Source: a virus
Taxonomy: Duplodnaviria > Heunggongvirae > Uroviricota > Caudoviricetes
Virus record (IMG/VR): IMGVR_UViG_2558860473_000005
Coordinates: 1-41,949 of that record
DNA: 41,949 nt
Strand: one strand, 5' to 3'
The notes below the pieces were generated by a model. The model was given only the letters and a program-made list of their open reading frames with translations, had not been told where the DNA came from and ran no database searches. Positions 5,050 to 41,949 of this stretch are shown here, one piece after another; position 1 is the stretch's first letter, and each line of letters starts with the position of its first letter. Both the position numbers and the translations under genes were made by a program.

Positions 5050-5702
5050 CCTTCACAGTTGTAATCACTACAGCCTTCAAAATCATATGGGCTGTACTGC
5101 CAGGTTATTTTTCCGCAATGCGGACAATTCCAACGCACCTTCCCGCTTCGCGACTTCTTTCTTCTGTTCTGCTCTTTCAACCAGTCAGGCATGACCAAAC
5201 CTGCGCCCTGAACCATTGTTCTGCGGTTAAATTTATTGATATTGAACGTCCGGCGCTTTGCTGCATCAGCAATGGAAAATGGCAACCAAACTATTCCTGG
5301 TTCGTTTTTGTTGGCGACGCTAAAGATGGTAGCTTTACTGAAGTCATCTGTTGGCAATCCACCGTGTTGAAGCCAGTAAACATCGTTGCCGTTCCAGCTA
5401 CCTTTTTTGTAGGCCACATACGCAGTGCAATCTGACTTAATCAGGCTTTCTGTAGGGATGTACTGGCAATCAACGTGCCACACTGCCATTGCATCCACGC
5501 TATCAGCGCAAACAGGCTGATCGATATCTCGCCCACAATTCCAGGCTTTTTGGGCTTTTTCCAGCGTGTAAACATGAGCGCGATCGATATCAGAACTGTA
5601 ACCATTGCCGTTATGGCAATGGAATGAAGCGTTATTGCCCACAGTTTCACGCGAGCACATCATGTAAAAACGGTTAGTCACTGGCTGCCTCCTTTGCGCC
5701 AC
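5037..5702 (-). CDS. Hypothetical protein with C-terminal CxxC...CxxC zinc-finger motif, 221 aa
   Basis: ORF in the leftward early operon; C-terminal NCPHCGK...CSDYNCEGW. Confidence 0.55.
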
Positions 5703-9331: not shown

Positions 9332-9658
9332 TCAAATAAGTGGTTTGCTGCCTAATTTCATTTTCTGGCGACCAACACAAGTCACACCCATTTCACTGCG
9401 TGGCTTGCTGTACCATGTGCGCTGATTCTTGCGCTCAATACGTTGCAGGTTGCTTTCAATCTGTTCGTGGTATTCAGCCAGCACCGTAAGGTCTATCGGA
9501 TTCAGTGCGCTTTCTACTCGTGATTTCGGTTTGCGATTCAGCGAGAGAATAGGGCGGTTAACTGGTTTTGCGCTTACCCCAACCAACAGGGGATTTGCTG
9601 CTTTCCATTGAGCCTGTTTCTCTGCGCGACGTTCGCGGCGGCGTGTTTGTGCATCCAT
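9332..9658 (-). CDS. N: Antitermination protein N (lambda-type), 108 aa
   Basis: Begins MDAQTRRRERRAEKQAQWKAANPLLVG (arginine-rich boxB-binding motif); essentially lambda N by recall; start set at the internal Met of the track ORF. Confidence 0.9.
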   Translation of the reverse strand: MDAQTRRRERRAEKQAQWKAANPLLVGVSAKPVNRPILSLNRKPKSRVESALNPIDLTVLAEYHEQIESNLQRIERKNQRTWYSKPRSEMGVTCVGRQKMKLGSKPLI

Positions 9659-9768
9659 CTGGATTCTCCTGTCAGTTAGCTTTGAGTAACGCGCCGTGAT
9701 GCTTATCTCCACGGTTGCTGTCTTGCAGCTGCATTTCGCGCTACTCAAAGCTTTCTGCTTTGAATGCT

Positions 9769-9799
9769 GCCCTTCTTCAGGGCTTAATTTTTAAGAGCG
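9769..9799 (-). promoter_or_regulatory. nutL (boxA CGCTCTTAA, boxB GCCCTGAAGAAGGGC)
   Basis: Reverse complement reads CGCTCTTAAAAATTAAGCCCTGAAGAAGGGC, the canonical lambda nutL. Confidence 0.85.
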
Positions 9800-9828
9800 T
9801 CACCTTCATGGTGGTTAGTGCGTCCTGC

Positions 9829-9870
9829 TGATGGCTAAATAGTACGATTTGTACTTTATCGAGTCAATAC
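9829..9870 (-). promoter_or_regulatory. Putative PL promoter with OL-type dyad AGTACgatttGTACT
   Basis: On the minus strand: -35 TTGACT, 17-bp spacer, -10 TACTAT, overlapping a perfect 15-bp palindrome that shares the GTAC half-site with the OR sites. Confidence 0.5.
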
Positions 9871-9930
9871 AAAATGTTCTAAATATAATTAGTTTTTTAT
9901 AACGCTTTGTATTTAATGGGTTTATATTTT

Positions 9931-9960
9931 GGAAAAAGAAAACCCGACGCTAAGGTCGGG
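9931..9960 (-). terminator. Rho-independent terminator downstream of cI
   Basis: Hairpin CCCGAC-gctaag-GTCGGG followed by a U-run on the minus strand, about 30 bp after the cI stop. Confidence 0.6.
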
Positions 9961-9992
9961 TTATTGTTGTGTGTTTTAGAGTGGTGAGGCTG

Positions 9993-10652
9993 TTAACTAA
10001 ATGTCTCTTCAGGCCACTGGCTGGCGATAACTTTCCCTACTACGGAACAGCTATCATTGCATGGAATCATTGGATATTGCGGGTTTAGTGGCTGTAGGAA
10101 CACCTGACCGCTATCCCTGATCAGTTTCTTGAAGGTAAACTCGTCACCACCAAGTCTGGCTATGCAGAAATCACCTGGCTCAACAGCCTGATCAGGGTCA
10201 ACGAGAATTAACATCCCGTCAGGAAAGCTTGGCTTGGATCCTGTTGGCGCGGTCATGGAATTACCTTCAACTTCAAGCCAAAACGCACAATCACTGGCTT
10301 TTTTGGTTGTGCTGACCCATCTCTCCGCATCACCTTTGGTAAAGGTTCTAAGCTCAGGCGAGAACATCCCGGCCTGAACATGAGAAAAAACAGGGTACTC
10401 ATATTGTTTTTTAACGGGGGCAGATGAGTATTCGCCAACAGGTGAAAATGTACCGTCGTGGTTGAATGAGACGTTATCAATACCAAGGTATTTAAACACC
10501 ACACCAATCTCGTCAAGAGATGGATGACGAGATCCGCGCAACCAGTGACCAATTCCACCCTGCGTCATACCAAGCTCTTCAGCTAACTTCTCTTGAGTTA
10601 TGCCGAGCTCTTTCATTCTGGATCTAGCCAGTTCATACCATTTCATTTTCAT
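9993..10652 (-). CDS. cI: CI-type prophage repressor (HTH N-terminal domain plus S24/LexA-like C-terminal domain), about 219 aa
   Basis: C-terminal half ([37 protein letters not shown]...) is near-identical to lambda CI by recall; N-terminal DNA-binding domain is different; start taken at MKMKWYEL (10652) or two codons later (10646). Confidence 0.85.
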
Positions 10653-10763
10653 ACCCCTATTATTACGCTCTGTACTAAAACCATCCATGCACAAGATGTA
10701 TTTTTTGTTTGCATTCTAAAAGTACATATCGTATTATTGTTTCATGGTTACTATGGAGGGCAT
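10653..10763 (+). promoter_or_regulatory. OR/PR/PRM region: two GTAC dyads (ATTACgctctGTACT 10662-10676; AGTACatatcGTATT 10721-10735) and putative PR (-35 TTGCAT 10709-10714, -10 TATTAT 10732-10737)
   Basis: Divergent cI-cro intergenic region; the dyads share half-sites with the OL dyad; PR has a 17-bp spacer and is overlapped by the second dyad. Confidence 0.5.
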
Positions 10764-32855: not shown

Positions 32856-34978
32856 TGAAAGTAACTGCAAACGGAAAGACATTTACCTTCCCTGATGGTA
32901 CGAGCACGGAAGATATTGGCACCGCCATTGATGAGTATTTTGCTGGTCAGGCTGTTCAGCAACAAACAGTTAATCAGGCCAATAATGAACCAGCGCGTGA
33001 AGAACCATCATTGATGCAACAAGCTGGCGATTGGCTCACTGGTGGTCAAAGTGCAGGGCAAATTGCAGAACAGGCTGGTCGTGGTCTGGTAAACATACCA
33101 TTTGACGTATTGCAGGGTGGCGCAAGTCTGATTAATGCAATCAGTCAGGGGCTTGGTGGGCCAAAAGTATTGGATGATGTCTATCGTCCAGTCGATCGAC
33201 CGACAGACCCTTACGCGCAAGCCGGTGAAACAATTGGTGGGTATCTCCTGCCAATTGGCACAGCGGCAAAAGCTGCTGGAGCGCCAGCAAAGCTCGCTGG
33301 AGATATCGGTTCCGCAGGAAACATGATTGCAGGTTCTCTTGCTGATGCTGCAAATCAGGAGGGCGATTTTGCACAAAATGCTGCCATTAACGGTGGTATC
33401 AATATTGGTGCTCAAGGCGTTCTTTCAGGTGTCGGGCGCGTTATTGCGCCAAGGGTTTCACAGGCTCTTGGTGGTGCAGCACTGAATTCTGCTAATGATG
33501 TTTCCAGGATGGCAAAGTCAGGTGCTGGGCGTCAGTCAATTGCCAGTCAGGCCGCTAATGTGTCCGAAGATGTAGCAAAAGCGGCTGAGTCTGCTGGAAT
33601 TGATATAAACGCATTAACACCAGGAATGCGATCTGGAAGTCGTGGAATTGCACAAGCCGAAGGCGCATTGGCATCAACACCAGGAATCGTTCAGGACGCC
33701 CATCAGGCAGCATTTAACGAAATATCATCAAAGTTAAGTCGAAACCTTGATGAATTTGGGGCCGCATCTGGAACGGCATCAGAAAAAAGTGCGGCTATAA
33801 AACAAAGGATTCTTCAAAATCTTGATCAGATGAAGGATGCCGAGCGCGCGGCATGGGATGACGTGCGGTCAACAATGCCAAATCAAAAATCAAGAATGCT
33901 AAATGGTAATGCCGTTATTCAGGCAGAGCGATCTGCTGGCATACCGCTTACTCCTGAAATGAAACAGTTTGTTCAGGCAAACAATCAAGGTGGAGTAACA
34001 TTTGATGGCATGAAAGCATGGAGAGCGAAATTTGCTGATGCGGAGCAAAAATATAAGCGTAGCGGAGAGGCAAATGCGGCAAGGAGAGCAGGGGAAATAC
34101 GCCGGGCAATTACTGATGATATGCGCACAATGGCGGAAAACGGCGGATTTCTTGATGACTGGCAAAAAGCTAATGATCTGTCTAAAGCGAGGTTATCAGC
34201 ACAAGAGAGTGCAGAGTCTGTTTTCGGGCGTGATTTGGCAACAGATGCACTGATTACGAATGGAGTAAAATCCCTTCAATCATCGTCAGCTAAAGGTCTT
34301 AATGGTCCTGCTGGATTCCATTCTATGATCCGCGCGCTGCCAGAATCAGAGCGTGTTCCTGCTATATCATCAATGTTGCAAGATGCTATCTCGCATGGTG
34401 TACGTGGTGGCAAAGCTGATGCAGCAGGAATTAACCATATCGCAGAGATACTCACTCCACAAAATGTAAAAGCCATTAGCCGATATTCCTCAGAGCTTGG
34501 AAGAATTGCAGATGCATATGGCACTCTTGCAAGAGCAGCAGTGAAACCTCAGCAGTATATTGAAAGAACAGGGAGAACTGCCAATGTACTACGCGATCTG
34601 GATGCTGGTTTATCCAACGTCACATCAACAGTGTTAAATGCAATTGCTAACTCAACATCAGGTGCCATTGTTGGTGGAGCAGGAGGGGGCATTGCAGGCG
34701 CTGCCGCAGGTGCTTTAGTTGGCGCTGGGTTAAAAGGCGCTGTATCTAAAATTGCCACCACACGTAGTGGTCGATATGCGATAGAGAAAGCTGTTCAGGA
34801 AGCCACCAAAGCAGTAAGAGCAGGCGGAAGCAAAGAAGCATTACTGGCGGCGGAACGCAGATTTATGGCAAATAAGGCCGCCGTAAAAGCAATACGTGAT
34901 ACAGTCGGAAACGAAGAGTTTCAGCGCTTAGCGAGGGCTGGTATTGTGGCATCGCTAAGCGGAATGGCACGGGAGTAA
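32852..34978 (+). CDS. Ejection protein, P22 gp16-like, 708 aa
   Basis: Size and synteny; Ala/Gly-rich. Confidence 0.7.
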
Positions 34979-35311
34979 TTAATCATCCATGGATGGATTG
35001 AGCTTATCTCGTGTTGATGTGGCGGTTTTCCCTACATTCCTAAGCCAAGCTTTCAAATCCTTGATATTGTCATTGATTTCATGAATATCTTCCTTTTTTA
35101 ATCTGTCAATATTATTTTCAATAATTTCAATGGATTGCTCAATATCAGATATAGTGAATGATAGTTTGCTCTTCTCATCTGTTATTGAGTTTTTAAGTAC
35201 TTCGTTCTCAGTCTTGAGGTCAGATATCTTTTGCTTTAAAGATGCCAGTTGGCACTGAACCACAATGAGTGCGATAGCTATCACGACAAATGTTGCATAC
35301 ACGCTAACCAC
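34979..35311 (-). CDS. Membrane-anchored coiled-coil protein (N-terminal TM helix then coiled coil), 110 aa; cassette gene C
   Basis: Hydrophobic YATFVVIAIALIVVQ segment followed by heptad-like K/E-rich sequence; GTG start; AT-rich by eye. Confidence 0.55.
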   Translation of the reverse strand: MVSVYATFVVIAIALIVVQCQLASLKQKISDLKTENEVLKNSITDEKSKLSFTISDIEQSIEIIENNIDRLKKEDIHEINDNIKDLKAWLRNVGKTATSTRDKLNPSMDD

Positions 35312-35322
35312 CTTGGTTTTAT

Positions 35323-35676
35323 CTACTTGAGGACTAATCCGTTAAGTGCATCAAGGATTTTAGATACGTAACTACCGAAAATGTAGGTGCAAAAAGCAAA
35401 AACAACCGTGACGACAGCACCGATAGCCTTAATGGTTGTTTTCATTGTGGTGATACTAGTTTCAATACTGCTAAGCCTGGTGTCAATTGACTTCACGTCT
35501 TTTTGAATGATCTCAATGTCACGCTTGATATAGCTGACATCAGACTCTAACTTTGCGACCCTTGATTCCATGCCATCACCTCCTTCGCCTCCAGACCTGT
35601 TCTTATCCTTTGTGTTCTCAGGATGGATACGAGATATGTTTTTTTCACTAATTGATGTTTCAATTATATCAAGCAT
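35323..35676 (-). CDS. Tail-anchored coiled-coil membrane protein (XhlA-like architecture), 117 aa, or 82 aa from the internal start at 35571; cassette gene B
   Basis: Coiled-coil segment then C-terminal hydrophobic helix AIGAVVTVVFAFCTYIFGSYV; strong GGAGG RBS before the internal Met; 8-bp overlap with gene A if the long start is used. Confidence 0.55.
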   Translation of the reverse strand: MLDIIETSISEKNISRIHPENTKDKNRSGGEGGDGMESRVAKLESDVSYIKRDIEIIQKDVKSIDTRLSSIETSITTMKTTIKAIGAVVTVVFAFCTYIFGSYVSKILDALNGLVLK

Positions 35677-36079
35677 CTTTCACATGACTCACGGAAAAGT
35701 AGGCTTGCGCAGAATGCACTAGAGTGTTGTCTTTGCTGATGGATACTCGAATTAAGTAATCCCCGTCAGCATCAAGTTTGCATTTATCGAAATGCATAGA
35801 CATCGATGTTGCCAAGGTGTTCCTGATCTCATTGTGTCCTTTTGCCTTAATCCATACGCCTTTATCACCGCTTACACTGATTTCTAACTCATTCTCGATT
35901 CTATAGAGACAAGCTGAAACCCAATATGGTGTATCATGAATTAAACCGAGAAAGTGAACCTGAAAATCAAGGTCAGTAGTCACAGGTAACTCATCTGTCT
36001 CCATGATTAACATGGGTGATTTTTCATCATTTTCAGACTTATGGTAAGGAAAAAGGAATGCTATTTTTTCAGTGTTCAT
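35669..36079 (-). CDS. Hypothetical soluble protein, 136 aa; cassette gene A
   Basis: Start overlaps the mnt stop by 4 bp (translational coupling); no recognisable family. Confidence 0.55.
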   Translation of the reverse strand: MNTEKIAFLFPYHKSENDEKSPMLIMETDELPVTTDLDFQVHFLGLIHDTPYWVSACLYRIENELEISVSGDKGVWIKAKGHNEIRNTLATSMSMHFDKCKLDADGDYLIRVSISKDNTLVHSAQAYFSVSHVKDA

Positions 36080-36318
36080 TTCCCATCCCTTAAACGTTTA
36101 AGTACATTGATGGTTACATCAAGAGCCTCTTGCTCTGACTTTGCCAGTTGCTGACTGCTTAATGGTATAACCTGCTCTTTATGCATTTTTATCCACAACT
36201 GGATAGCAGCAATAATCTCAGCATTGATAGAGCGTCGATTAGTGGCAGCAATATGCGTAAGTTGCTGTTTTATCTCATCTGGCATTCTTACGTTGAATTG
36301 CGGATCATTTCTAGCCAC
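36076..36318 (-). CDS. mnt: Mnt-like ribbon-helix-helix repressor, 80 aa
   Basis: MARNDPQFNVRMPDEIKQQL... resembles P22 Mnt; divergent from arc; GTG start with GGAGA RBS. Confidence 0.75.
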   Translation of the reverse strand: MARNDPQFNVRMPDEIKQQLTHIAATNRRSINAEIIAAIQLWIKMHKEQVIPLSSQQLAKSEQEALDVTINVLKRLRDGK

Positions 36319-36411
36319 GTCATTCTCCTTTTATTTATTGACATGCTAGAACGGTAGTAGTACGCTTTCAATAGTAGTACGGTGCTATCATTTGATGAAA
36401 TGGAGGTGAAT
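36319..36411 (+). promoter_or_regulatory. immI-like divergent promoter/operator region (Pant-like -35 TTGACA 36338-36343; direct repeats TAGTAGTAC at about 36355 and 36373)
   Basis: Intergenic region between divergent mnt and arc; candidate -35/-10 elements on both strands overlapped by two 9-bp direct repeats. Confidence 0.45.
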
Positions 36412-36573
36412 ATGCAAGGTGCAAGAAAAATGCCGCAGTTCAATTTGCGGTGGCCTAAAGAAGTATTGGATTTGGTACGCAAGGTGGCGGAAGAGAATGG
36501 TCGGTCTGTTAATTCTGAGATTTATCAGCGAGTAATGGAAAGCTTTAAGAAGGAAGGGCGCATTGGTGCGTAA
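36412..36573 (+). CDS. arc: Arc repressor (ribbon-helix-helix), 53 aa
   Basis: [53 protein letters not shown] is near-identical to P22 Arc by recall; GGAGGTG RBS. Confidence 0.9.
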
Positions 36574-36577
36574 AGTT

Positions 36578-36609
36578 GAAGCCCCAACTGCTGGAACAGT
36601 CAGGGCTTC
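36578..36609 (+). promoter_or_regulatory. Extended hairpin in the arc-ant intercistronic region
   Basis: GAAGCCC...GGGCTTC with inner ACTG/CAGT stem; no U-run on either strand. Confidence 0.35.
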
Positions 36610-36641
36610 GGTATCAACAAAACTTACGAGGTATTATTGAT

Positions 36642-37532
36642 ATGTCAAGCTTAGCAAAGTCAACTGTAAATTGCACTAATAGCATCATCATTTCTGACGT
36701 CAAGATTCATATGGATTCAGAGGGGCGTTACTCGCTTAATGACCTTCATGTAGCGTCTGGGAAGGAGGAAAAACATCAGCCAGCTTTCTTCATGCGTAGA
36801 AATGAAACTATTGAATTAATTAATGAAATTTTTAATTCTGCGGATATGCAGAATAAGAATCCCGTCCTTTCTAAGAAAGGTCGATATGGTGGAACCTACG
36901 TGTGCAAGGAGCTTGTTTACTCCTACGCCATGTGGATTAGTGCATCCTTTGCGCTGAAGGTTATCCGTGCATATGACGCAATGGTTACTGCCACACAAGA
37001 TAGGAAGGCTATTGGAGGTAAAACTTCAGTAGCTGAACGCACACCGCTACGAGATGCAGTAAACATGCTGGTAGGAAAGAAAGGACTTCGCTATGACGAT
37101 GCATACAATATGGTTCATCAGCGTTTTGGTATTGACAGCATTGATGAACTTTCAATTGAACAAATCCCGCTGGCCGTAGAGTACATCCACAGGGTAGTGC
37201 TTGAAGGTGAGTTCATTGGCAAACAAGAGAAGAAAACCAACGAGCTTTCTGCAAAAGAAGCAAACAGCCTTGTATGGTTATGGGATTATGCCAACCGTTC
37301 ACAGGCATTATTCCGCGAACTGTATCCGGCGCTAAAACAAATTCAATCGAACTATTCCGGCAGATGCTACGACTACGGTCATGAGTTCTCGTATGTTATC
37401 GGAATGGCGAGAGACGTTTTAATAAACCACACACGAGATGTTGATATTAATGAGCCAGACGGACCAACGAATCTTTCCGCATGGATGAGACTTAAGAATA
37501 AAGAATTACCTCCTTCAGTACATAACTACTGA
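36642..37532 (+). CDS. ant: Antirepressor Ant (KilA-N domain N-terminus), 296 aa
   Basis: KilA-N-like segment ([24 protein letters not shown]...); downstream of arc as in P22 immI; GAGGT RBS. Confidence 0.8.
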
Positions 37533-37632: not shown

Positions 37633-39441
37633 ATGACAGATTCAATAAATGCCAATGTTGTAGTGAGCATGCCATCGCAACTCTTCACTATGGCTCGTTC
37701 TTTTAAAGCCGTAGCCAATGGCAAAATTTATATCGGTAAAATTGACACTGACCCGGTAAATCCTGAAAACCAGATTCAGGTTTATGTAGAGAACGAAGAC
37801 GGCTCTCACGTTCCTGTTTCTCAACCAATCATCATTAACGCTGCTGGTTACCCAGTATATAACGGACAGATTGCCAAGTTTGTAACCGTGCAAGGCCATT
37901 CTATGGCTGTTTATGATGCGTATGGTGCACAGCAGTTTTATTTTCCTAATGTGCTGAAGTATGACCCTGATCAGTTTGGTCCAGACTTCAAAGAGCAGTT
38001 ATCTCAATCAGGGGAATACATTAATGATGATTCAAAAGGTGATGCATTAATTGGCGTAAGACAGCCCGTTGCCGGGTCGGTAGCTATCACACAGCATGAT
38101 AAAAACGCACAAATAATCAACTTAAAAGATTTTGGTGCTAAGTGCGATGGTGTAACTGATGACACAGTGGCAATTCAGGCTGCTGTAGCTGCTGCGCATA
38201 CTGGTGTCCGTATAGTTCAACCTGCAGGGGTTTGCCTTACATCTCAGCCGTTGTCATTCACTAGTCCTGCATTTTGGTATGGAGATGATGGCGCTCGCAT
38301 TAAGCTCATTAGTGGCAGTCATGACTATGTTATGGAAATTGATCTTCGCGGGCCTAGTGGTTCGTTCTGGGGTTATGGGTCACATATTGAAAACATTATC
38401 TTTGATGGTGGTGGTCACGCAAAAGATGGCCTTTCATTGCGTGGTGTTATCGGAGGTATATTCAAAAATATTCGTGGGACAAATATATCAAGGACCGCTA
38501 TTCATGAATGGTGGACCCAACTTTGCCACTATGAAAATATTCAATGCAGTAATAATATTGAAGCATTCCAAACAACCCCTATTCACGGAATCTTATCTGA
38601 TTGTGAGTTTGGAACTGGTAATGATCGTGGGTCTTCTGCAAATACTTACATGAATACCACTATTGAACATACCTCTGGTAGTGGGATTTGTGGGGTGTTT
38701 ATGTCTAATTGTACATTTATAAATGGCACATCAGAAGGTAACGATATTGGCATTGAGTTTGGTCACGCTACTGATGATAGAAACCAATCAGTTGGGAATT
38801 CAGTTATTGGCATGGATCTTGAAGTTAATTCTTTAACTGATGTGTTATTACATAAAACAACATATGCAAATGACTTTATTGGTCTAAAAGCTGGTTATTC
38901 ATCTCCAGCCATTCAGGTGCAAGGCTCATATGCTAATAGCTTTATTGGTGGAGTAAGCAGTGGTATAGATTTTGACTCATCATCGCATGATAATAAAGTA
39001 ATAGGTATGAATCTTTTAGGCAACGATTCTATCATCGTAGATAACGGGTTAAGAAATTCATATGAGAATATTTTCAATATTTCATCTGGAGCTAAAAAAG
39101 AAAGCACTAACCCTTATCCATCGCGTAGCAACAATATAATTTCATCAAATGGTACTGTGCAAATTAACCCATTTTTATCATCATACTGTGTTGTGTCGGC
39201 TACTGGTTCACCAATTAATGTTACGTCTGTAGCAAAAAAATTAGACGGTGCGACTATTGATATGACTATTCATAACATTTCTGGATCTGATGAATTAATA
39301 GTAAACTGGTCTTCTGACTTCAGAGTTTCTGGATGGACAAGCCCGGCAACAGGGCGCCACCGGTCTATAAGATTTGCTTATGATGCAAACTACGGATACT
39401 GGACTGCTATATCTATGAGTCAGTCAGATATTCTGAACTAA
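37633..39441 (+). CDS. Tailspike protein: P22-type N-terminal head-binding domain plus divergent beta-helix receptor-binding domain, 602 aa
   Basis: First ~115 residues match the P22/Sf6 tailspike N-terminus by recall; the rest has repetitive G/N/S/T-rich strands typical of parallel beta-helix depolymerases. Confidence 0.85.
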
Positions 39442-39453
39442 GATTTATGCTGT

Positions 39454-39476
39454 GGGGGGGATTATTCCCCCTGTTT
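39454..39476 (+). terminator. Terminator between the convergent tailspike and acyltransferase genes
   Basis: Hairpin GGGGGG-attatt-CCCCC followed by TGTTTTACTTT; overlaps the acyltransferase stop. Confidence 0.55.
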
Positions 39477-40595
39477 TACTTTCCTCATATCCACCAGTTT
39501 ACCAGGGATGCTCATAAATATCTTATTTCTAATCTTGTTAGTAAGTATCACTTCAATATATTTATGCGAAAGAAATGCAATAAAAATTGATAAAATTAGT
39601 AAAATAGTGAACCCGTATACATTGTGCATCACACCTGGATTATTAGCCTCAACCTGCCATGAAATGTAACTACCTACCTGGTTATGAAGCAGATACCATG
39701 AGAAGGAAATATCACCAAGCATTACAAAAAATGATGGTGTAATTTTTGTTATAACTTCATCATTTATTACGAACGCCACTAAGAGGAAGTATGCAATGAT
39801 GCCTGTCTTTAAATTATAACCTTCAATAGAACCATTGAAGACTGCAGTCATAAAAATTAATGCCGATATAGCAGTGAATGAGTATTTTAATCTATTGCTC
39901 CATGATTTTGCTGAACGCACTGTGTGCCCAGCAAGGATGCCTAAAGCAAATTCAATTACTATCGGATTTGTTAAAAAGCTAAGTTCTGGAGTACCAGTTT
40001 TATAACCTGAAGTGGATAATGTTACATTTCCAGTCAACATATATCCTACAAGGATAGTTGTCATTATCCATACGACTATGCCAGAGGTTCTTTTATTGAA
40101 TAATAAACAAAGTGCGAATACAAGATAGAAGTATAATTCATAGTTAAGCGTCCATCTAATAACAAATATACCACCAGCATCAACATACAAAGGAGGGTAC
40201 GCATCCGTAAAAGGAGAGAATGTTAAAGCACTCAGTAAGTTTTCCACCTTAGCTTGGTCAACGAAGATTCCAACTTCCCATGTAAAGTAGAAAGCTGTAA
40301 AGAGAGCAATAAAATATGTAGGAAAAATCCTTGTGAGTCTTTCTACGGAAAAGAATATAGCAGACTTTATACCAGATGGCTTACGGCTAGTGATATGCAT
40401 CATAATAAAACCACTTATTACGAAGAACAAATCAACACCAGCAGAACCCCAAGATAAATATTTATTAGGGATAGTTAAATCTCCATACAATGGTGATAAC
40501 CAAAATCTGTAGTGAAAAAGAACTACAGACAATGCAGCTAATCCTCTAAGTATCTGTACTGAGCTAAGTTTATTGTTCATTATTAAACCGATCAC
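39462..40595 (-). CDS. Acyltransferase family 3 (OafA/Oac-like) integral membrane O-acetyltransferase, 377 aa
   Basis: Multi-TM protein with acyltransferase-3-like N-terminal motif (ILRGLAALSVVLFHY); very AT-rich by eye; between tailspike and int, as oac is in Sf6. Confidence 0.75.
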   Translation of the reverse strand: MIGLIMNNKLSSVQILRGLAALSVVLFHYRFWLSPLYGDLTIPNKYLSWGSAGVDLFFVISGFIMMHITSRKPSGIKSAIFFSVERLTRIFPTYFIALFTAFYFTWEVGIFVDQAKVENLLSALTFSPFTDAYPPLYVDAGGIFVIRWTLNYELYFYLVFALCLLFNKRTSGIVVWIMTTILVGYMLTGNVTLSTSGYKTGTPELSFLTNPIVIEFALGILAGHTVRSAKSWSNRLKYSFTAISALIFMTAVFNGSIEGYNLKTGIIAYFLLVAFVINDEVITKITPSFFVMLGDISFSWYLLHNQVGSYISWQVEANNPGVMHNVYGFTILLILSIFIAFLSHKYIEVILTNKIRNKIFMSIPGKLVDMRKVKQGE

Positions 40596-40791
40596 TTTCT
40601 GTAAATGTCATTCACATGATTATGCGATAAAATCCATAGTAATCCATTATAAATTTTTCTATATGAAACATAAGAAAAATTCACTGAGTTGTTGAATTGA
40701 TACATCTCATCTTTCAACGACAATGTCTACAAAACACACAAAGCTTTGCACTGGATTGCAATGATTTGTGTCATTCGATAGTTAATGTGGA

Positions 40792-41949
40792 TCACTCCAC
40801 CTTTTCATCAAGCCAGTCCGCCCACCATTGCATCATTTCTCTGCGCTTATCGAGATACTGAGCATGGTTGTAAATCCCGCGCACAGAACCGCCGTTGGCA
40901 TGTGCCAGCTGCACTTCAATAGCGTCAGCAGGCCATTCGTGCTCGTTCATAATCGTGCTGAATTCATGCCTGAATCCGTGACCGCTTTCCAGACCTTCAT
41001 AGCCGATTTGTTTGATCACAAGCAATACCGCGTTCTCGCAGATTGGCTTCTTCTTATCGTTGCGCCCGGCAAAAACAAACTCTGAGACTGGTTTGGTGAT
41101 TGAGCTTAGCGTAGTGAGAAGTTCAACTACCTGGTCTGACATAGGAACCACATGAATTTTGCGTCCCTTCATCACGCTGGCGTCGATGGTGATAATCCTG
41201 TTTTCAAAATCGACGTTCTTCCATAGCATAGAACGAAGCTCTTTCGTTCTTAGGGCTGTGTAGCGTAAAACTTTGGTCGCAATGAGCGATACGATACTTC
41301 CTGAAAATGTTGCCAGTGCTTTGTTGAATGCCGGGATCTGGTCTGCAGGAAGAAACGGGAAGTTCTTCTTGCGGTATCCTTTCATGGCGTCAGCAAGGTC
41401 AGGTGCCGGGTTATATTTAGCCCTGCCGGTGACAATAGCGTAACGGAAAACCTCGCCGCATCTTCTGCGGGCTTTATTGGCTCGTTCCATTGCACCGCGA
41501 TCTTCAAATCTGCGGATTACTTCCAGCAGTTGCATTGGCTCAATATCCTGAATTTCAAGGCCGCCGATGATAGGTAAAATGTCGTCATCAAACATTTTTG
41601 CAAGTTCAGTCGCATACCCTACTGACCATACTTGCTTCTTGTGCTCGTACCATTCCTTGTAAATCGCACTAAAGGAATTGTTGTTAGACGAAGCCTTTTT
41701 CGCCTTTACCGGATCGATGCCAACCGAGATGTCTTTCCTCGCGGTCCATGCCTTATCCCTTGCCTCCTGCAAAGTCATAAGCGGATATTTTCCTACGGTC
41801 AGTATTTTTTCCTTACCGTCAATCTTGTAGCGAAGCTGCCATACCTTTTTCCCGGATACAGGGACATAAAGGTACAGGCCATTACCATCGAGAAGGCGGT
41901 ATGGTTTTTCTTTCGGCTTTGCTGCTTCAATCTGCTTAACGGTGAGCAT
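40792..41949 (-). CDS. intS: Tyrosine integrase (P4-type phage integrase family; IntS/Sf6 Int-like), 385 aa
   Basis: N-terminal SAM-like domain and C-terminal catalytic domain with conserved R...HGFRH...Y residues; start codon at the last 3 nt of the window. Confidence 0.85.
   Translation of the reverse strand: MLTVKQIEAAKPKEKPYRLLDGNGLYLYVPVSGKKVWQLRYKIDGKEKILTVGKYPLMTLQEARDKAWTARKDISVGIDPVKAKKASSNNNSFSAIYKEWYEHKKQVWSVGYATELAKMFDDDILPIIGGLEIQDIEPMQLLEVIRRFEDRGAMERANKARRRCGEVFRYAIVTGRAKYNPAPDLADAMKGYRKKNFPFLPADQIPAFNKALATFSGSIVSLIATKVLRYTALRTKELRSMLWKNVDFENRIITIDASVMKGRKIHVVPMSDQVVELLTTLSSITKPVSEFVFAGRNDKKKPICENAVLLVIKQIGYEGLESGHGFRHEFSTIMNEHEWPADAIEVQLAHANGGSVRGIYNHAQYLDKRREMMQWWADWLDEKVE

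What the first reader, a model, noticed from the sequence alone, without database searches (positions are those of the whole stretch)
35669..36079. Unknown 136-aa soluble protein translationally coupled to the Mnt repressor
Seen: gene A starts within the mnt stop codon (4-bp overlap) and ends overlapping the start of gene B. The protein has no recognisable motif (no nucleotide-binding or nuclease signatures I can see). Inference: its stoichiometric coupling to a lysogeny repressor and to membrane proteins suggests a sensor or regulator of the cassette, or an independent exclusion factor.
Basis: partly seen in the sequence, partly recalled or inferred. Interest (0 to 1): 0.55.

Follow-up and report, generated by a model that had tools for sequence, protein, structure and literature searches.

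The report
Repressor-linked two-gene prophage cassette (A–B)
The 136-aa protein is a real, conserved gene that always travels with a small tail-anchored membrane protein directly behind a prophage repressor gene, the slot where phage lambda keeps rexAB, so it is probably half of an uncharacterised phage-exclusion module whose function has never been tested.

Summary
Gene A (35669-36079, minus strand) starts in an ATGA overlap with the mnt stop, and its stop overlaps the start of gene B by 8 bp. A has no Pfam, NCBIfam or PADLOC match, no membrane segment, and dN/dS of about 0.1.

A is not tied to Mnt or to gene C. In all 17 loci carrying recognisable A homologues, A follows a prophage repressor, either Mnt-type or CI-type, and overlaps a B-family gene. 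Remote A homologues, including phage epsilon34 gp45, precede most other B genes sampled. Two lineages have a zinc-ribbon partner instead.

A is predicted to be an Ig-like beta-sandwich. B has a hypervariable N-peptide, a poly-glycine linker, a near-invariant Met preceded by a Shine-Dalgarno-like motif, a probably trimeric coiled coil and a C-terminal membrane helix. The N-peptide co-varies with A; the B core does not.

Gene C (hkcB-like) is separate cargo.

Best reading, inferred only: a lysogen-expressed, Rex-like exclusion module, with A as a tethered sensor or adaptor and B as the membrane effector. No function has been tested. The only mention I found is a 2008 remark that epsilon34 genes 44 and 45 sit "like rexA and rexB".

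The parts
36076..36318 (-). mnt-type ribbon-helix-helix maintenance repressor (80 aa), first gene of the leftward immI operon
   Evidence: Pfam Arc 4.9e-13. 85.9% DNA identity to the annotated mnt of phage Emek. Divergent from arc, sar and ant.
36343..36371 (-). candidate Pmnt promoter (TTGAAA, 17-nt spacer, TAGCAT)
   Evidence: Consensus scan. Its position matches Pmnt/Pant in the epsilon34 annotation. A pattern match only.
35669..36079 (-). gene A: 136-aa soluble acidic protein with a predicted 8-strand Ig-like beta-sandwich. Member of the epsilon34 gp45-like superfamily (PHROG 5893).
35323..35676 (-). gene B, long form (117 aa): N-peptide, Gly linker, coiled coil and C-terminal TM. Its start overlaps A's stop by 8 bp.
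   Evidence: PHROG 6136 1.1e-37. Sub-threshold XhlA match, 24.8 bits against a 34.7 cut-off.
35593..35676 (-). B N-terminal peptide (aa 1-28). Hypervariable across the family, co-varies with A, and is predicted disordered on its own.
   Evidence: (dN/dS 0.12-0.21).
35572..35592 (-). B glycine-rich linker (GGEGGDG). Apparent recombination joint between the A-plus-N-peptide module and the B core.
35577..35585 (-). Shine-Dalgarno-like AAGGAGGTG inside the linker codons, 5 nt upstream of the internal ATG
   Evidence: An SD-like motif is present in 15 of 17 loci against 6.4 expected.
35323..35571 (-). B core, or putative short form (82 aa), starting at the near-invariant Met36. The heptad coiled coil (aa 36-83) continues into the TM helix.
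35365..35433 (-). B C-terminal transmembrane segment (about aa 82-104)
   Evidence: Hydropathy 2.08 at residues 82-100. Part of one continuous helix in the AF2 model.
34979..35311 (-). gene C, hkcB-like (N-terminal TM plus coiled coil). Co-oriented but independent cargo, not part of the A-B module.
   Evidence: PHROG 5962 1e-56. 93-95% DNA identity to hkcB homologues of SEN22, epsilon34 and CUS-3, which lack A and B here. Hydropathy.
36412..36573 (+). arc repressor
   Evidence: Pfam Arc 1.4e-30. RefSeq coordinates.
36574..36640 (-). sar antisense RNA
   Evidence: Rfam RF00262, 66.3 bits, E 8.8e-13.
36642..37532 (+). ant antirepressor (KilA-N plus P22_AR_C)

Best explanation
Genes A and B form a mobile two-gene cassette that temperate Enterobacterales phages place in the operon of a lysogeny repressor, here mnt, so both proteins are made in the lysogen.

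B is a tail-anchored inner-membrane protein. A probably trimeric cytoplasmic coiled coil runs straight into a single C-terminal membrane helix. At its membrane-distal tip, on a flexible poly-glycine tether, it carries a short hypervariable peptide.

A is a cytoplasmic Ig-like beta-sandwich, a binding module with no catalytic motif. It co-evolves with that peptide and probably docks on it.

I propose Rex-like logic. A is the specificity or sensor subunit that recognises a component of an infecting phage. B is the membrane effector, related in architecture to XhlA lysis-cassette proteins. B then perturbs the membrane and so aborts or excludes the infection.

An internal SD plus ATG in B probably yields an untethered short isoform that sets the threshold or gives self-immunity. 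Known precedents, recalled from memory, are SieB/Esc, S105/S107 and excess RexB.

Shown here: gene reality, synteny, coupling, architecture, modular co-variation and the internal start signal. Inferred: expression in the lysogen, the A-peptide contact, the membrane action and the anti-phage role.
For: 1. Synteny.
- All 17 loci with recognisable A homologues have the order repressor, A, B.
- The Mnt-type loci all keep the ATGA overlap between repressor and A.
- A and B overlap by 1-8 bp in those loci, and overlap by up to 14 bp or abut in the wider set.
- The repressor types are unrelated: RHH Mnt, S24 CI and short HTH CI. The phage types also differ: P22-like, lambdoid, and siphovirus-like with Bro-N antirepressors.

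2. B as the common element.
- The B family is large, at least 335 clusters across Enterobacterales.
- Every sampled B lies behind a repressor and a 126-156-aa protein with no Pfam match.
- In 12 of 14 lineages that protein belongs to the A superfamily: hhalign 98.7, 98.8, 99.3, 92.9 and 92.4%. In 2 lineages it is a zinc-ribbon protein.
- This is the pattern of a conserved effector with exchangeable partners.

3. Co-variation.
- N-peptide identity tracks A identity, and B-core identity does not. Window against L013 gives A 66, N-peptide 57, core 28. Window against L019 gives A 26, N-peptide 18, core 73.
- Among 120 B proteins, N-peptides form 46 clusters and cores form 5 at 50% identity.

4. 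Structure.
- In B, residues 1-34 are disordered and residues 35-116 form a single helix.
- All heptad a and d positions are Ile, Val, Leu or Met.
- Profile hits in the PDB are mainly trimeric coiled coils.

5. Internal start.
- The residue after the linker is Met in 113 of 120, Val in 6 and Leu in 1.
- An SD-like motif lies 3-10 nt upstream in 15 of 17 loci, against 6.4 expected under synonymous recoding (P about 1.6e-5).

6. Slot.
- Between cI and N, lambda carries rexAB and BTP1 carries bstA, both abortive-infection systems (PMC8585504).
- Downstream of mnt, P22 carries sieA (PMC2629481 and PMC10883804).
- Similarity to phage Emek stops at window 36083. Similarity to epsilon34, SEN22 and CUS-3 stops at 35320. 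The cassette 35323-36079 is therefore bounded by mosaic junctions on both sides.
Against: - No phenotype exists for any member.
- A, B and their relatives match no PADLOC model beyond coiled-coil noise.
- An Ig-like fold is generic and says nothing specific about sensing.
- The co-variation of A with the N-peptide could reflect physical linkage plus recombination at the Gly-codon repeat rather than contact.
- The XhlA similarity is below Pfam's cut-off and comes largely from coiled coil plus TM.
- The N-in topology of B is inferred from the lack of a signal peptide and from tail-anchored precedents. It was not predicted with a dedicated tool.
- The 17 loci in the SD test are not phylogenetically independent.
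- Constant linkage to repressors could equally point to a role in the phage's own lysogeny control.
Confidence: 0.45

Rival explanations
1. SieA-like superinfection exclusion. The A-B complex at the cytoplasmic face of the inner membrane blocks DNA entry or the ejection-protein conduit of incoming phages, and the cell survives.
For: In this window the cassette occupies the P22 sieA slot between gene 16 and mnt. B is an inner-membrane protein. SieA-type proteins are diverse in sequence (PMC10883804).
Against: The same cassette sits in lambdoid and siphovirus-like prophages with different injection machinery. The hypervariable part (A plus N-peptide) is predicted cytoplasmic, whereas SieA is reported to act on gp16 and gp20 during envelope crossing. 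Neither A nor B resembles SieA: the PHROG hits are all of unknown function or are coiled-coil matches.
Confidence: 0.15
2. A self-directed regulator. A-B modulates the prophage's own lysis-lysogeny switch, induction or lysis timing, as reported for the RexA influence on the CI-Cro switch or for XhlA-type holin accessory proteins. It would not act on foreign phages.
For: The cassette is always attached to a maintenance repressor of whatever type, with an ATGA overlap to Mnt. B resembles lysis-cassette XhlA proteins. Dual-start membrane proteins are typical of holin and antiholin control (my own knowledge).
Against: The cassette is accessory. Close relatives with the same mnt or the same hkcB lack it. 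A is in only 1 of 5,426 complete E. coli genomes. In this window the cI-N interval is empty. Extreme diversification of A and the N-peptide against a conserved core fits a conflict interface better than a housekeeping regulator. In Erwinia aphidicola B is frameshifted within an otherwise apparently intact immunity region.
Confidence: 0.15
3. A lysogenic-conversion function unrelated to phages, for example envelope or stress physiology of the host. This would resemble the E. coli tail-anchored coiled-coil proteins ElaB and YqjD.
For: The architecture is tail-anchored coiled coil plus C-terminal TM. There is no defence-database hit. The genes are probably expressed in lysogens.
Against: All 14 lineages sampled lie in prophage immunity regions and none in core chromosome. 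The modular sensor-like diversification is unexplained by this reading.
Confidence: 0.15
4. A toxin-antitoxin or addiction module, with the RHH protein Mnt as antitoxin and A (with or without B) as toxin.
For: An RHH gene is followed by a small gene with a 4-bp overlap, the classical type II layout. Weak FitA and HicB RHH hits occur for Mnt.
Against: A-B occurs just as regularly behind CI/S24 and HTH repressors that have no RHH. The RHH protein is the bona fide Mnt of an intact immI region with arc, sar and ant. A has no toxin-like fold.
Confidence: 0.03

Closest known systems
Salmonella phage epsilon34 genes 45 and 44 (also g341c and NM-3)
   Same: gp45 is a remote homologue of A (hhalign 98.8%, E 8.6e-17). 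gp44 is a B-family protein with the same N-peptide, Gly linker, Met, coiled coil and TM layout. The pair overlaps and sits just downstream of the prophage repressor. Villafane et al. 2008 inferred prophage expression and compared the position to rexA and rexB.
   Different: The epsilon34 pair is in immC behind the CI-type repressor, whereas here the pair is in immI behind Mnt. The B core is of a different type (31% identity between cores of this type). No function is known for either.
Phage lambda RexA/RexB abortive-infection system
   Same: It is a two-gene cassette co-transcribed with the maintenance repressor and lies between cI and N in the CI-linked homologues. It has one cytoplasmic and one membrane component. 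Excess of the membrane component is thought to damp the system (PMC8585504), which is analogous to a possible B short form.
   Different: There is no sequence similarity: no RexA or RexB hits in Pfam at E up to 1. From memory, RexA is 279 aa and not an Ig-like sandwich, and RexB is a four-TM protein. B is single-pass and tail-anchored. No phenotype has been shown here.
XhlA family (Pfam PF10779), membrane proteins of Gram-positive phage lysis cassettes such as PBSX
   Same: These are small proteins with an N-terminal coiled coil and a C-terminal TM. B aligns over profile positions 9-66 of 67. NCBI labels many B-family proteins 'hemolysin XhlA'.
   Different: The score is 24.8 bits against a gathering score of 34.7, and only 5 of 11 members match at E up to 0.01. 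B carries an extra N-peptide and poly-Gly linker. The genomic context is a repressor operon, not a holin-endolysin cassette.
P22 SieA and P22/lambda SieB-Esc
   Same: All are prophage-expressed membrane exclusion proteins. sieA occupies the same gene 16 to mnt interval in P22. From memory, SieB makes a shorter inhibitory isoform (Esc) from an internal in-frame start, which parallels the B internal start.
   Different: No sequence similarity was detected. SieA works as a single protein, whereas here there is an obligate two-gene pair.
BstA (prophage BTP1)
   Same: It is defence cargo that characteristically sits directly downstream of prophage repressors in many Gram-negative prophages.
   Different: BstA is a single large DNA-associated protein with an aba self-immunity element. 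It is unrelated in sequence and architecture.

Membership tests
epsilon34 gp45-like / PHROG 5893 superfamily (gene A) | Sequence or profile homology over the full length | tested here: met
   PHROG 5893 at 5.4e-51 over residues 1-135. 17 representatives in 1.8 billion proteins. hhalign 98.8% to epsilon34 gp45.
epsilon34 gp45-like / PHROG 5893 superfamily (gene A) | Position immediately downstream of a prophage maintenance repressor, followed by an overlapping B-family gene | tested here: met
   All 17 loci.
B family (PHROG 6136; labelled 'hemolysin XhlA' by NCBI) | N-peptide, Gly-rich linker, Met-x-x-R-x-x-x-L-E coiled coil and C-terminal TM | tested here: met
   Alignment A3 invariant columns G30, G33, M36, R39 and E44. 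All 120 of 120 relatives have the linker. PHROG 6136 at 1.1e-37.
Pfam XhlA (PF10779) | Score at or above the curated gathering threshold of 34.7 bits | tested here: not met
   24.8 bits for window B. No member of A3 matches better than E 2.4e-05.
Pfam XhlA (PF10779) | Location in a holin-endolysin lysis cassette | tested here: not met
   All sampled contexts are repressor operons.
Lambda RexAB | Homology to RexA or RexB | tested here: not met
   No RexA or RexB family among Pfam hits at E up to 1 for A or B, and no PADLOC hit for A.
Lambda RexAB | Co-transcription with the maintenance repressor in the lysogen | tested here: inconclusive
   The genes share a strand with the repressor and overlap it or lie within 65 nt. 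No terminator-like site was found between mnt, A and B on the minus strand. No expression data exist.
Lambda RexAB | Abortive-infection phenotype with membrane depolarisation | not testable with these tools
   Needs infection assays.
P22 SieA | Sequence homology, or being a single inner-membrane protein sufficient for exclusion | tested here: not met
   No exclusion-annotated PHROG or Pfam family among the hits. The unit here is an obligate pair, and A is soluble.
Type II toxin-antitoxin (RHH antitoxin plus toxin) | Constant pairing of the putative toxin with an RHH antitoxin | tested here: not met
   A homologues follow S24-type CI or short HTH repressors in most lineages.
Dual-start membrane proteins (holin/antiholin, SieB/Esc) | Two in-frame starts, each with its own initiation signal, producing two isoforms | tested here: inconclusive
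   Sequence signals are present and enriched: 15 of 17 loci against 6.4 expected, and Met, Val or Leu in 120 of 120. The upstream segment is under purifying selection. No protein or ribosome-profiling evidence exists.

The most novel reading that the evidence does not exclude
A-B defines a new, Enterobacterales-wide class of repressor-operon immune modules. In it, a hypervariable Ig-like receptor (A) is held on a poly-glycine leash by a matching docking peptide at the tip of a trimeric, tail-anchored coiled-coil effector (B). Phage recognition by A releases or reorganises B to breach the inner membrane. An internally initiated leash-less B isoform tunes the threshold or protects the resident prophage. 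The Gly-codon repeat doubles as a recombination joint that lets phages swap receptor heads onto a few conserved effector stalks.
Probability: 0.25. Interest if true: 0.8.

Novelty: new variant of a known kind. Interest (0 to 1): 0.6.

Why it matters
Cargo downstream of prophage repressors is a proven source of abortive-infection and exclusion systems such as rexAB, bstA and sieA. Even so, the mechanism of the two-component paradigm, Rex, is still poorly understood.

This cassette is small (about 760 bp) and widespread in Enterobacterales prophages, including epsilon34 and a prophage of EPEC E2348/69. It is also naturally modular, with dozens of head types (A plus docking peptide) on five stalk types.

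If it is a defence system, it offers three things:
- a tractable model for how a soluble sensor is coupled to a membrane effector;
- a natural library for mapping specificity;
- an explanation for many genes currently mislabelled 'hemolysin XhlA' in clinical genomes.

If it instead regulates the prophage's own switch or lysis, its strict linkage to three unrelated repressor types would be equally informative.

Tried and rejected
- tblastn of A against 50,697 phage records found nothing. A is absent from sequenced phage isolates at the sequence level.
- A genome-contig scan with alignment A1 found no confirmed relative.
- The search for related loci with the diverse alignment A2 failed because no stretch was conserved enough.
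- The afdb50 fold library was unavailable.
- The three long repeat proteins in the representative search (P0026, P0028, P0029) are NHL or DUF11 repeat proteins. They are spurious matches to a beta-hairpin.
- PDB sequence search with the A profile gave nothing significant (best E 0.027).
- Literature searches for the RefSeq and PHROG identifiers, and for XhlA in a prophage-defence context, found no functional study.
- Brenes and Laub 2025 (Cell Host Microbe) could not be read. The DefensePredictor paper gave no identifiable match. Prior experimental description in those works therefore cannot be excluded.
- The toxin-antitoxin reading was rejected (see rivals), as was the idea that C belongs to the module.
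Full report
**1. What is at the coordinates**

The window is a P22-like prophage. The stretch 34900-36400 is 99.9% identical to E. coli 266917_2. On the minus strand, downstream of the ejection-protein gene 16, the genes run in this order:
- mnt, 36076-36318
- A, 35669-36079
- B, 35323-35676
- C, 34979-35311

Divergent from them on the plus strand lie arc (36412-36573), sar RNA (36574-36640 on the minus strand; Rfam RF00262, 66 bits), ant (36642-37532) and the tailspike gene.

A has no hit in Pfam, NCBIfam or PADLOC. It does match PHROG 5893, a family of unknown function, at 5.4e-51. It has no hydrophobic segment.

A evolves under purifying selection. dN/dS is 0.11 against an 89%-identical Salmonella homologue and 0.08 against a 66%-identical one.

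**2. Family size and fold of A**

Sequence searches find a small family:
- 13 clusters at 90% identity with the single sequence;
- 28 clusters with a profile;
- 17 representatives at 50% identity among 1.8 billion proteins.

Members come from E. coli, Salmonella, Leclercia, Tatumella, Erwinia and Serratia. Only 1 of 5,426 complete E. coli genomes carries A.

The only invariant residues are M1, P11, P32, G106 and Y108. Nothing suggests catalysis. A looks like a binding module.

**3. Context is the informative part**

In all 17 loci with a recognisable A homologue, about nine lineages, A lies immediately downstream of a prophage maintenance repressor. It is followed by a gene whose start overlaps A's stop by 1-8 bp.

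The repressor is one of two kinds in these loci:
- Mnt-type RHH, always with the ATGA overlap. This occurs in P22-like phages, and also in Leclercia and Tatumella prophages with siphovirus-type tail genes and Bro-N antirepressors.
- CI-type with an S24 peptidase domain. The pair then sits between cI and N, which is the lambda rexAB position.

The coupling is therefore to "a lysogeny repressor", not to Mnt as such. That also disposes of a toxin-antitoxin reading.

**4. The partner B**

All downstream partners share one architecture:
- a variable N-terminal peptide of 25-50 aa;
- a glycine-rich linker;
- a near-invariant Met;
- an M-x-x-R-x-x-x-L-E coiled coil;
- a C-terminal hydrophobic helix.

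AF2 predicts B residues 1-34 as disordered and residues 35-116 as one continuous helix. The heptad a and d positions are 100% Ile, Val, Leu or Met. Profile hits in the PDB are dominated by trimeric coiled coils: GCN4-pII fusions, fibritin, autotransporter stalks and P22 gp26. A trimer is therefore plausible.

There is no signal peptide and the TM helix is at the very C-terminus. B is therefore most simply a tail-anchored inner-membrane protein with its coiled coil in the cytoplasm. This topology is an inference.

B matches Pfam XhlA only below threshold, at 24.8 bits against a 34.7 cut-off. NCBI nevertheless names many relatives 'hemolysin XhlA'.

**5. B is the common denominator, and A is one of its partner types**

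The B family is much larger than the recognisable A family. It has at least 335 clusters across Enterobacterales.

I sampled six further B proteins with unrelated N-peptides, from Escherichia, Enterobacteriaceae, Serratia, Enterobacter, Yersinia and Pantoea. Each lies behind a repressor and a 126-145-aa protein with no Pfam match.

Profile comparison shows that most of these partners are remote A homologues:
- 98.7% for E. coli;
- 99.3% for Yersinia;
- 92.9% for Serratia;
- 92.4% for the profile of the L022 (Enterobacteriaceae) and L032 (Pantoea) partners, scored against an extended A profile.

Two lineages carry an unrelated CxxC...CxxC zinc-ribbon protein instead. These are Enterobacter phage ENT1 and an Enterobacter prophage.

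Phage epsilon34 gp45 and gp44 form such a pair behind repressor gp46 (hhalign 98.8% for gp45). Its genome paper noted only that the two genes sit "like rexA and rexB" and had no database matches (PMC2629481). That is the only literature mention I found.

**6. Modularity**

Across 14 lineages, identity of the B N-peptide follows identity of A, whereas identity of the B core does not.

| Pair | A identity (%) | N-peptide identity (%) | B core identity (%) |
|---|---|---|---|
| Window vs L013 | 66 | 57 | 28 |
| L019 vs epsilon34 | 73 | 78 | 31 |
| Window vs L019 | 26 | 18 | 73 |
| L011 vs L025 | 25 | 13 | 95 |

Among 120 B proteins, the N-peptides form 46 clusters and the cores form 5 at 50% identity. 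Chimeras are visible directly, for example P0113 and P0124.

The exchange point is the poly-Gly linker. The N-peptide codons are under purifying selection (dN/dS 0.12-0.21), so the long form is translated.

The simplest functional reading is that A and the N-peptide are a co-adapted unit, with A docking on the peptide, mounted on interchangeable stalks. Physical linkage alone could produce the same pattern. I could not model the complex.

**7. A second start in B**

The residue after the linker is Met in 113, Val in 6 and Leu in 1 of 120 proteins.

The Gly codons upstream spell GGAGG-type Shine-Dalgarno motifs 3-10 nt before this ATG in 15 of 17 loci. Only 6.4 are expected if the same peptides are recoded with the window's codon usage (P about 1.6e-5; the loci are not fully independent). 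In the window the motif is AAGGAGGTG, 5 nt from the ATG.

Gene callers split between the two starts. Two isoforms are therefore likely:
- a long form, translationally coupled to A;
- a short form, independently initiated and lacking the peptide and leash.

From my own knowledge, this recalls the holin S105/S107 pair, SieB/Esc, and the damping of Rex by excess RexB. The last point is also mentioned in PMC8585504.

**8. Gene C and the boundaries of the module**

C is an hkcB homologue (PHROG 5962) with an N-terminal TM and a coiled coil.

It occurs next to gene 16 in HK620, CUS-3, epsilon34, SEN22 and about 250 complete E. coli genomes that lack A and B. Salmonella relatives of A-B carry an unrelated 62-aa protein in its place.

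DNA similarity to epsilon34, SEN22 and CUS-3 ends at window 35320. Similarity to the mnt of phage Emek ends at 36083. The A-B cassette (35323-36079) is thus delimited by mosaic junctions at gene borders.

The same slot holds other cargo elsewhere: orf59a and sieA in P22, and small ORFs plus a DUF4065 pair in Emek. In this window the alternative slot between cI and N is empty.

**9. Mechanism**

Shown here:
- a conserved, overlapping A-B pair in repressor operons;
- A as a soluble Ig-like protein;
- B as peptide, Gly leash, coiled coil and TM;
- co-variation of A with the peptide;
- an internal initiation signal in B.

Inferred:
- expression in the lysogen from Pmnt or PRM;
- N-in topology for B;
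- contact between A and the peptide;
- trimerisation of B;
- an anti-phage role.

I commit to a Rex-like two-component exclusion or abortive-infection module, with A as the specificity subunit and B as the membrane effector (confidence 0.45). The grounds are the slot (rexAB, bstA and sieA precedents), the accessory and mosaic distribution, and the pattern of hypervariable heads on conserved stalks.

The rivals are:
- a SieA-like entry block (0.15);
- a self-directed lysis or lysogeny regulator (0.15);
- phage-unrelated lysogenic conversion (0.15);
- toxin-antitoxin (0.03).

**10. Novelty and score**

The kind, repressor-operon cargo with one soluble and one membrane component, is known from Rex. 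The proteins, the tethered architecture, the dual start and the head-stalk modularity are not described in anything I could read.

I could not access Brenes and Laub 2025, so prior experimental work cannot be excluded.

I rate the finding a new variant of a known kind, with interest 0.6.

Noticed in passing
window 36574-36640 (-): A clear sar antisense RNA (Rfam RF00262, 66 bits) lies between arc and ant. The immI region is therefore complete (mnt, arc, sar, ant), and ant most likely starts at 36642 rather than at the TTG at 36576 listed by the ORF finder.
   Followed up: yes
window 34979-35311 (-): The stop codon of gene C (hkcB-like; N-terminal TM plus coiled coil) abuts the stop of convergent gene 16 (which ends at 34978) with no spacer. 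C is widespread in P22-like phages and in about 250 complete E. coli genomes. Its function is unknown.
   Followed up: partly
L018 3533-3916 (Enterobacter phage ENT1) and L028 2628-3008: A second, unrelated partner class sits upstream of B-family genes. These are proteins of about 126 aa with CxxC...CxxC zinc-ribbon motifs, in the same slot after the repressor.
   Followed up: partly
L008 5420-5904 (Erwinia aphidicola CP142257): The B-family gene is frameshifted here, while the identical A gene is intact. In the sister locus L007 the B gene is intact (161 aa). This looks like decay of the effector in some hosts.
   Followed up: no
L005 and L006 about 5480-5530 (Tatumella): The poly-Gly run differs in length between two otherwise identical loci (10 against 14 Gly). 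The GGN repeat appears to be unstable or slippage-prone.
   Followed up: no
L030 1943-2449 (Yersinia): An extra 168-aa gene with a lipoprotein-like N-terminus (...LLGC) is inserted between cI and the A-B pair. This is further cargo stacked in the same slot.
   Followed up: no
L034 978-1851 (Salmonella phage Emek): The gene 16 to mnt interval of Emek carries a DUF4065-domain gene plus a 161-aa partner on the opposite strand, and two small ORFs downstream of mnt. This is a different cargo set in the same hotspot.
   Followed up: no
window 9332-10694 (-): The prophage's CI-type repressor (9993-10694) is followed directly by the N antiterminator gene (within 9332-9748), with no cargo between them. 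This phage carries its A-B cassette only at immI.
   Followed up: partly
window 37633-41949: The tailspike here is 602 aa, against 883 aa in the otherwise near-identical E. coli 266917_2 prophage. It is followed by a 377-aa multi-pass membrane ORF (39462-40595, minus strand), possibly an O-antigen-modifying acyltransferase, and by a 385-aa ORF at the window end (40792-41949, minus strand). These were not analysed further.
   Followed up: no
E. coli complete genomes: DNA similar to the type-1 B core occurs in 16 of 5,426 complete E. coli genomes, including EPEC O127:H6 E2348/69. A well-studied strain therefore carries a relative of the cassette.
   Followed up: no
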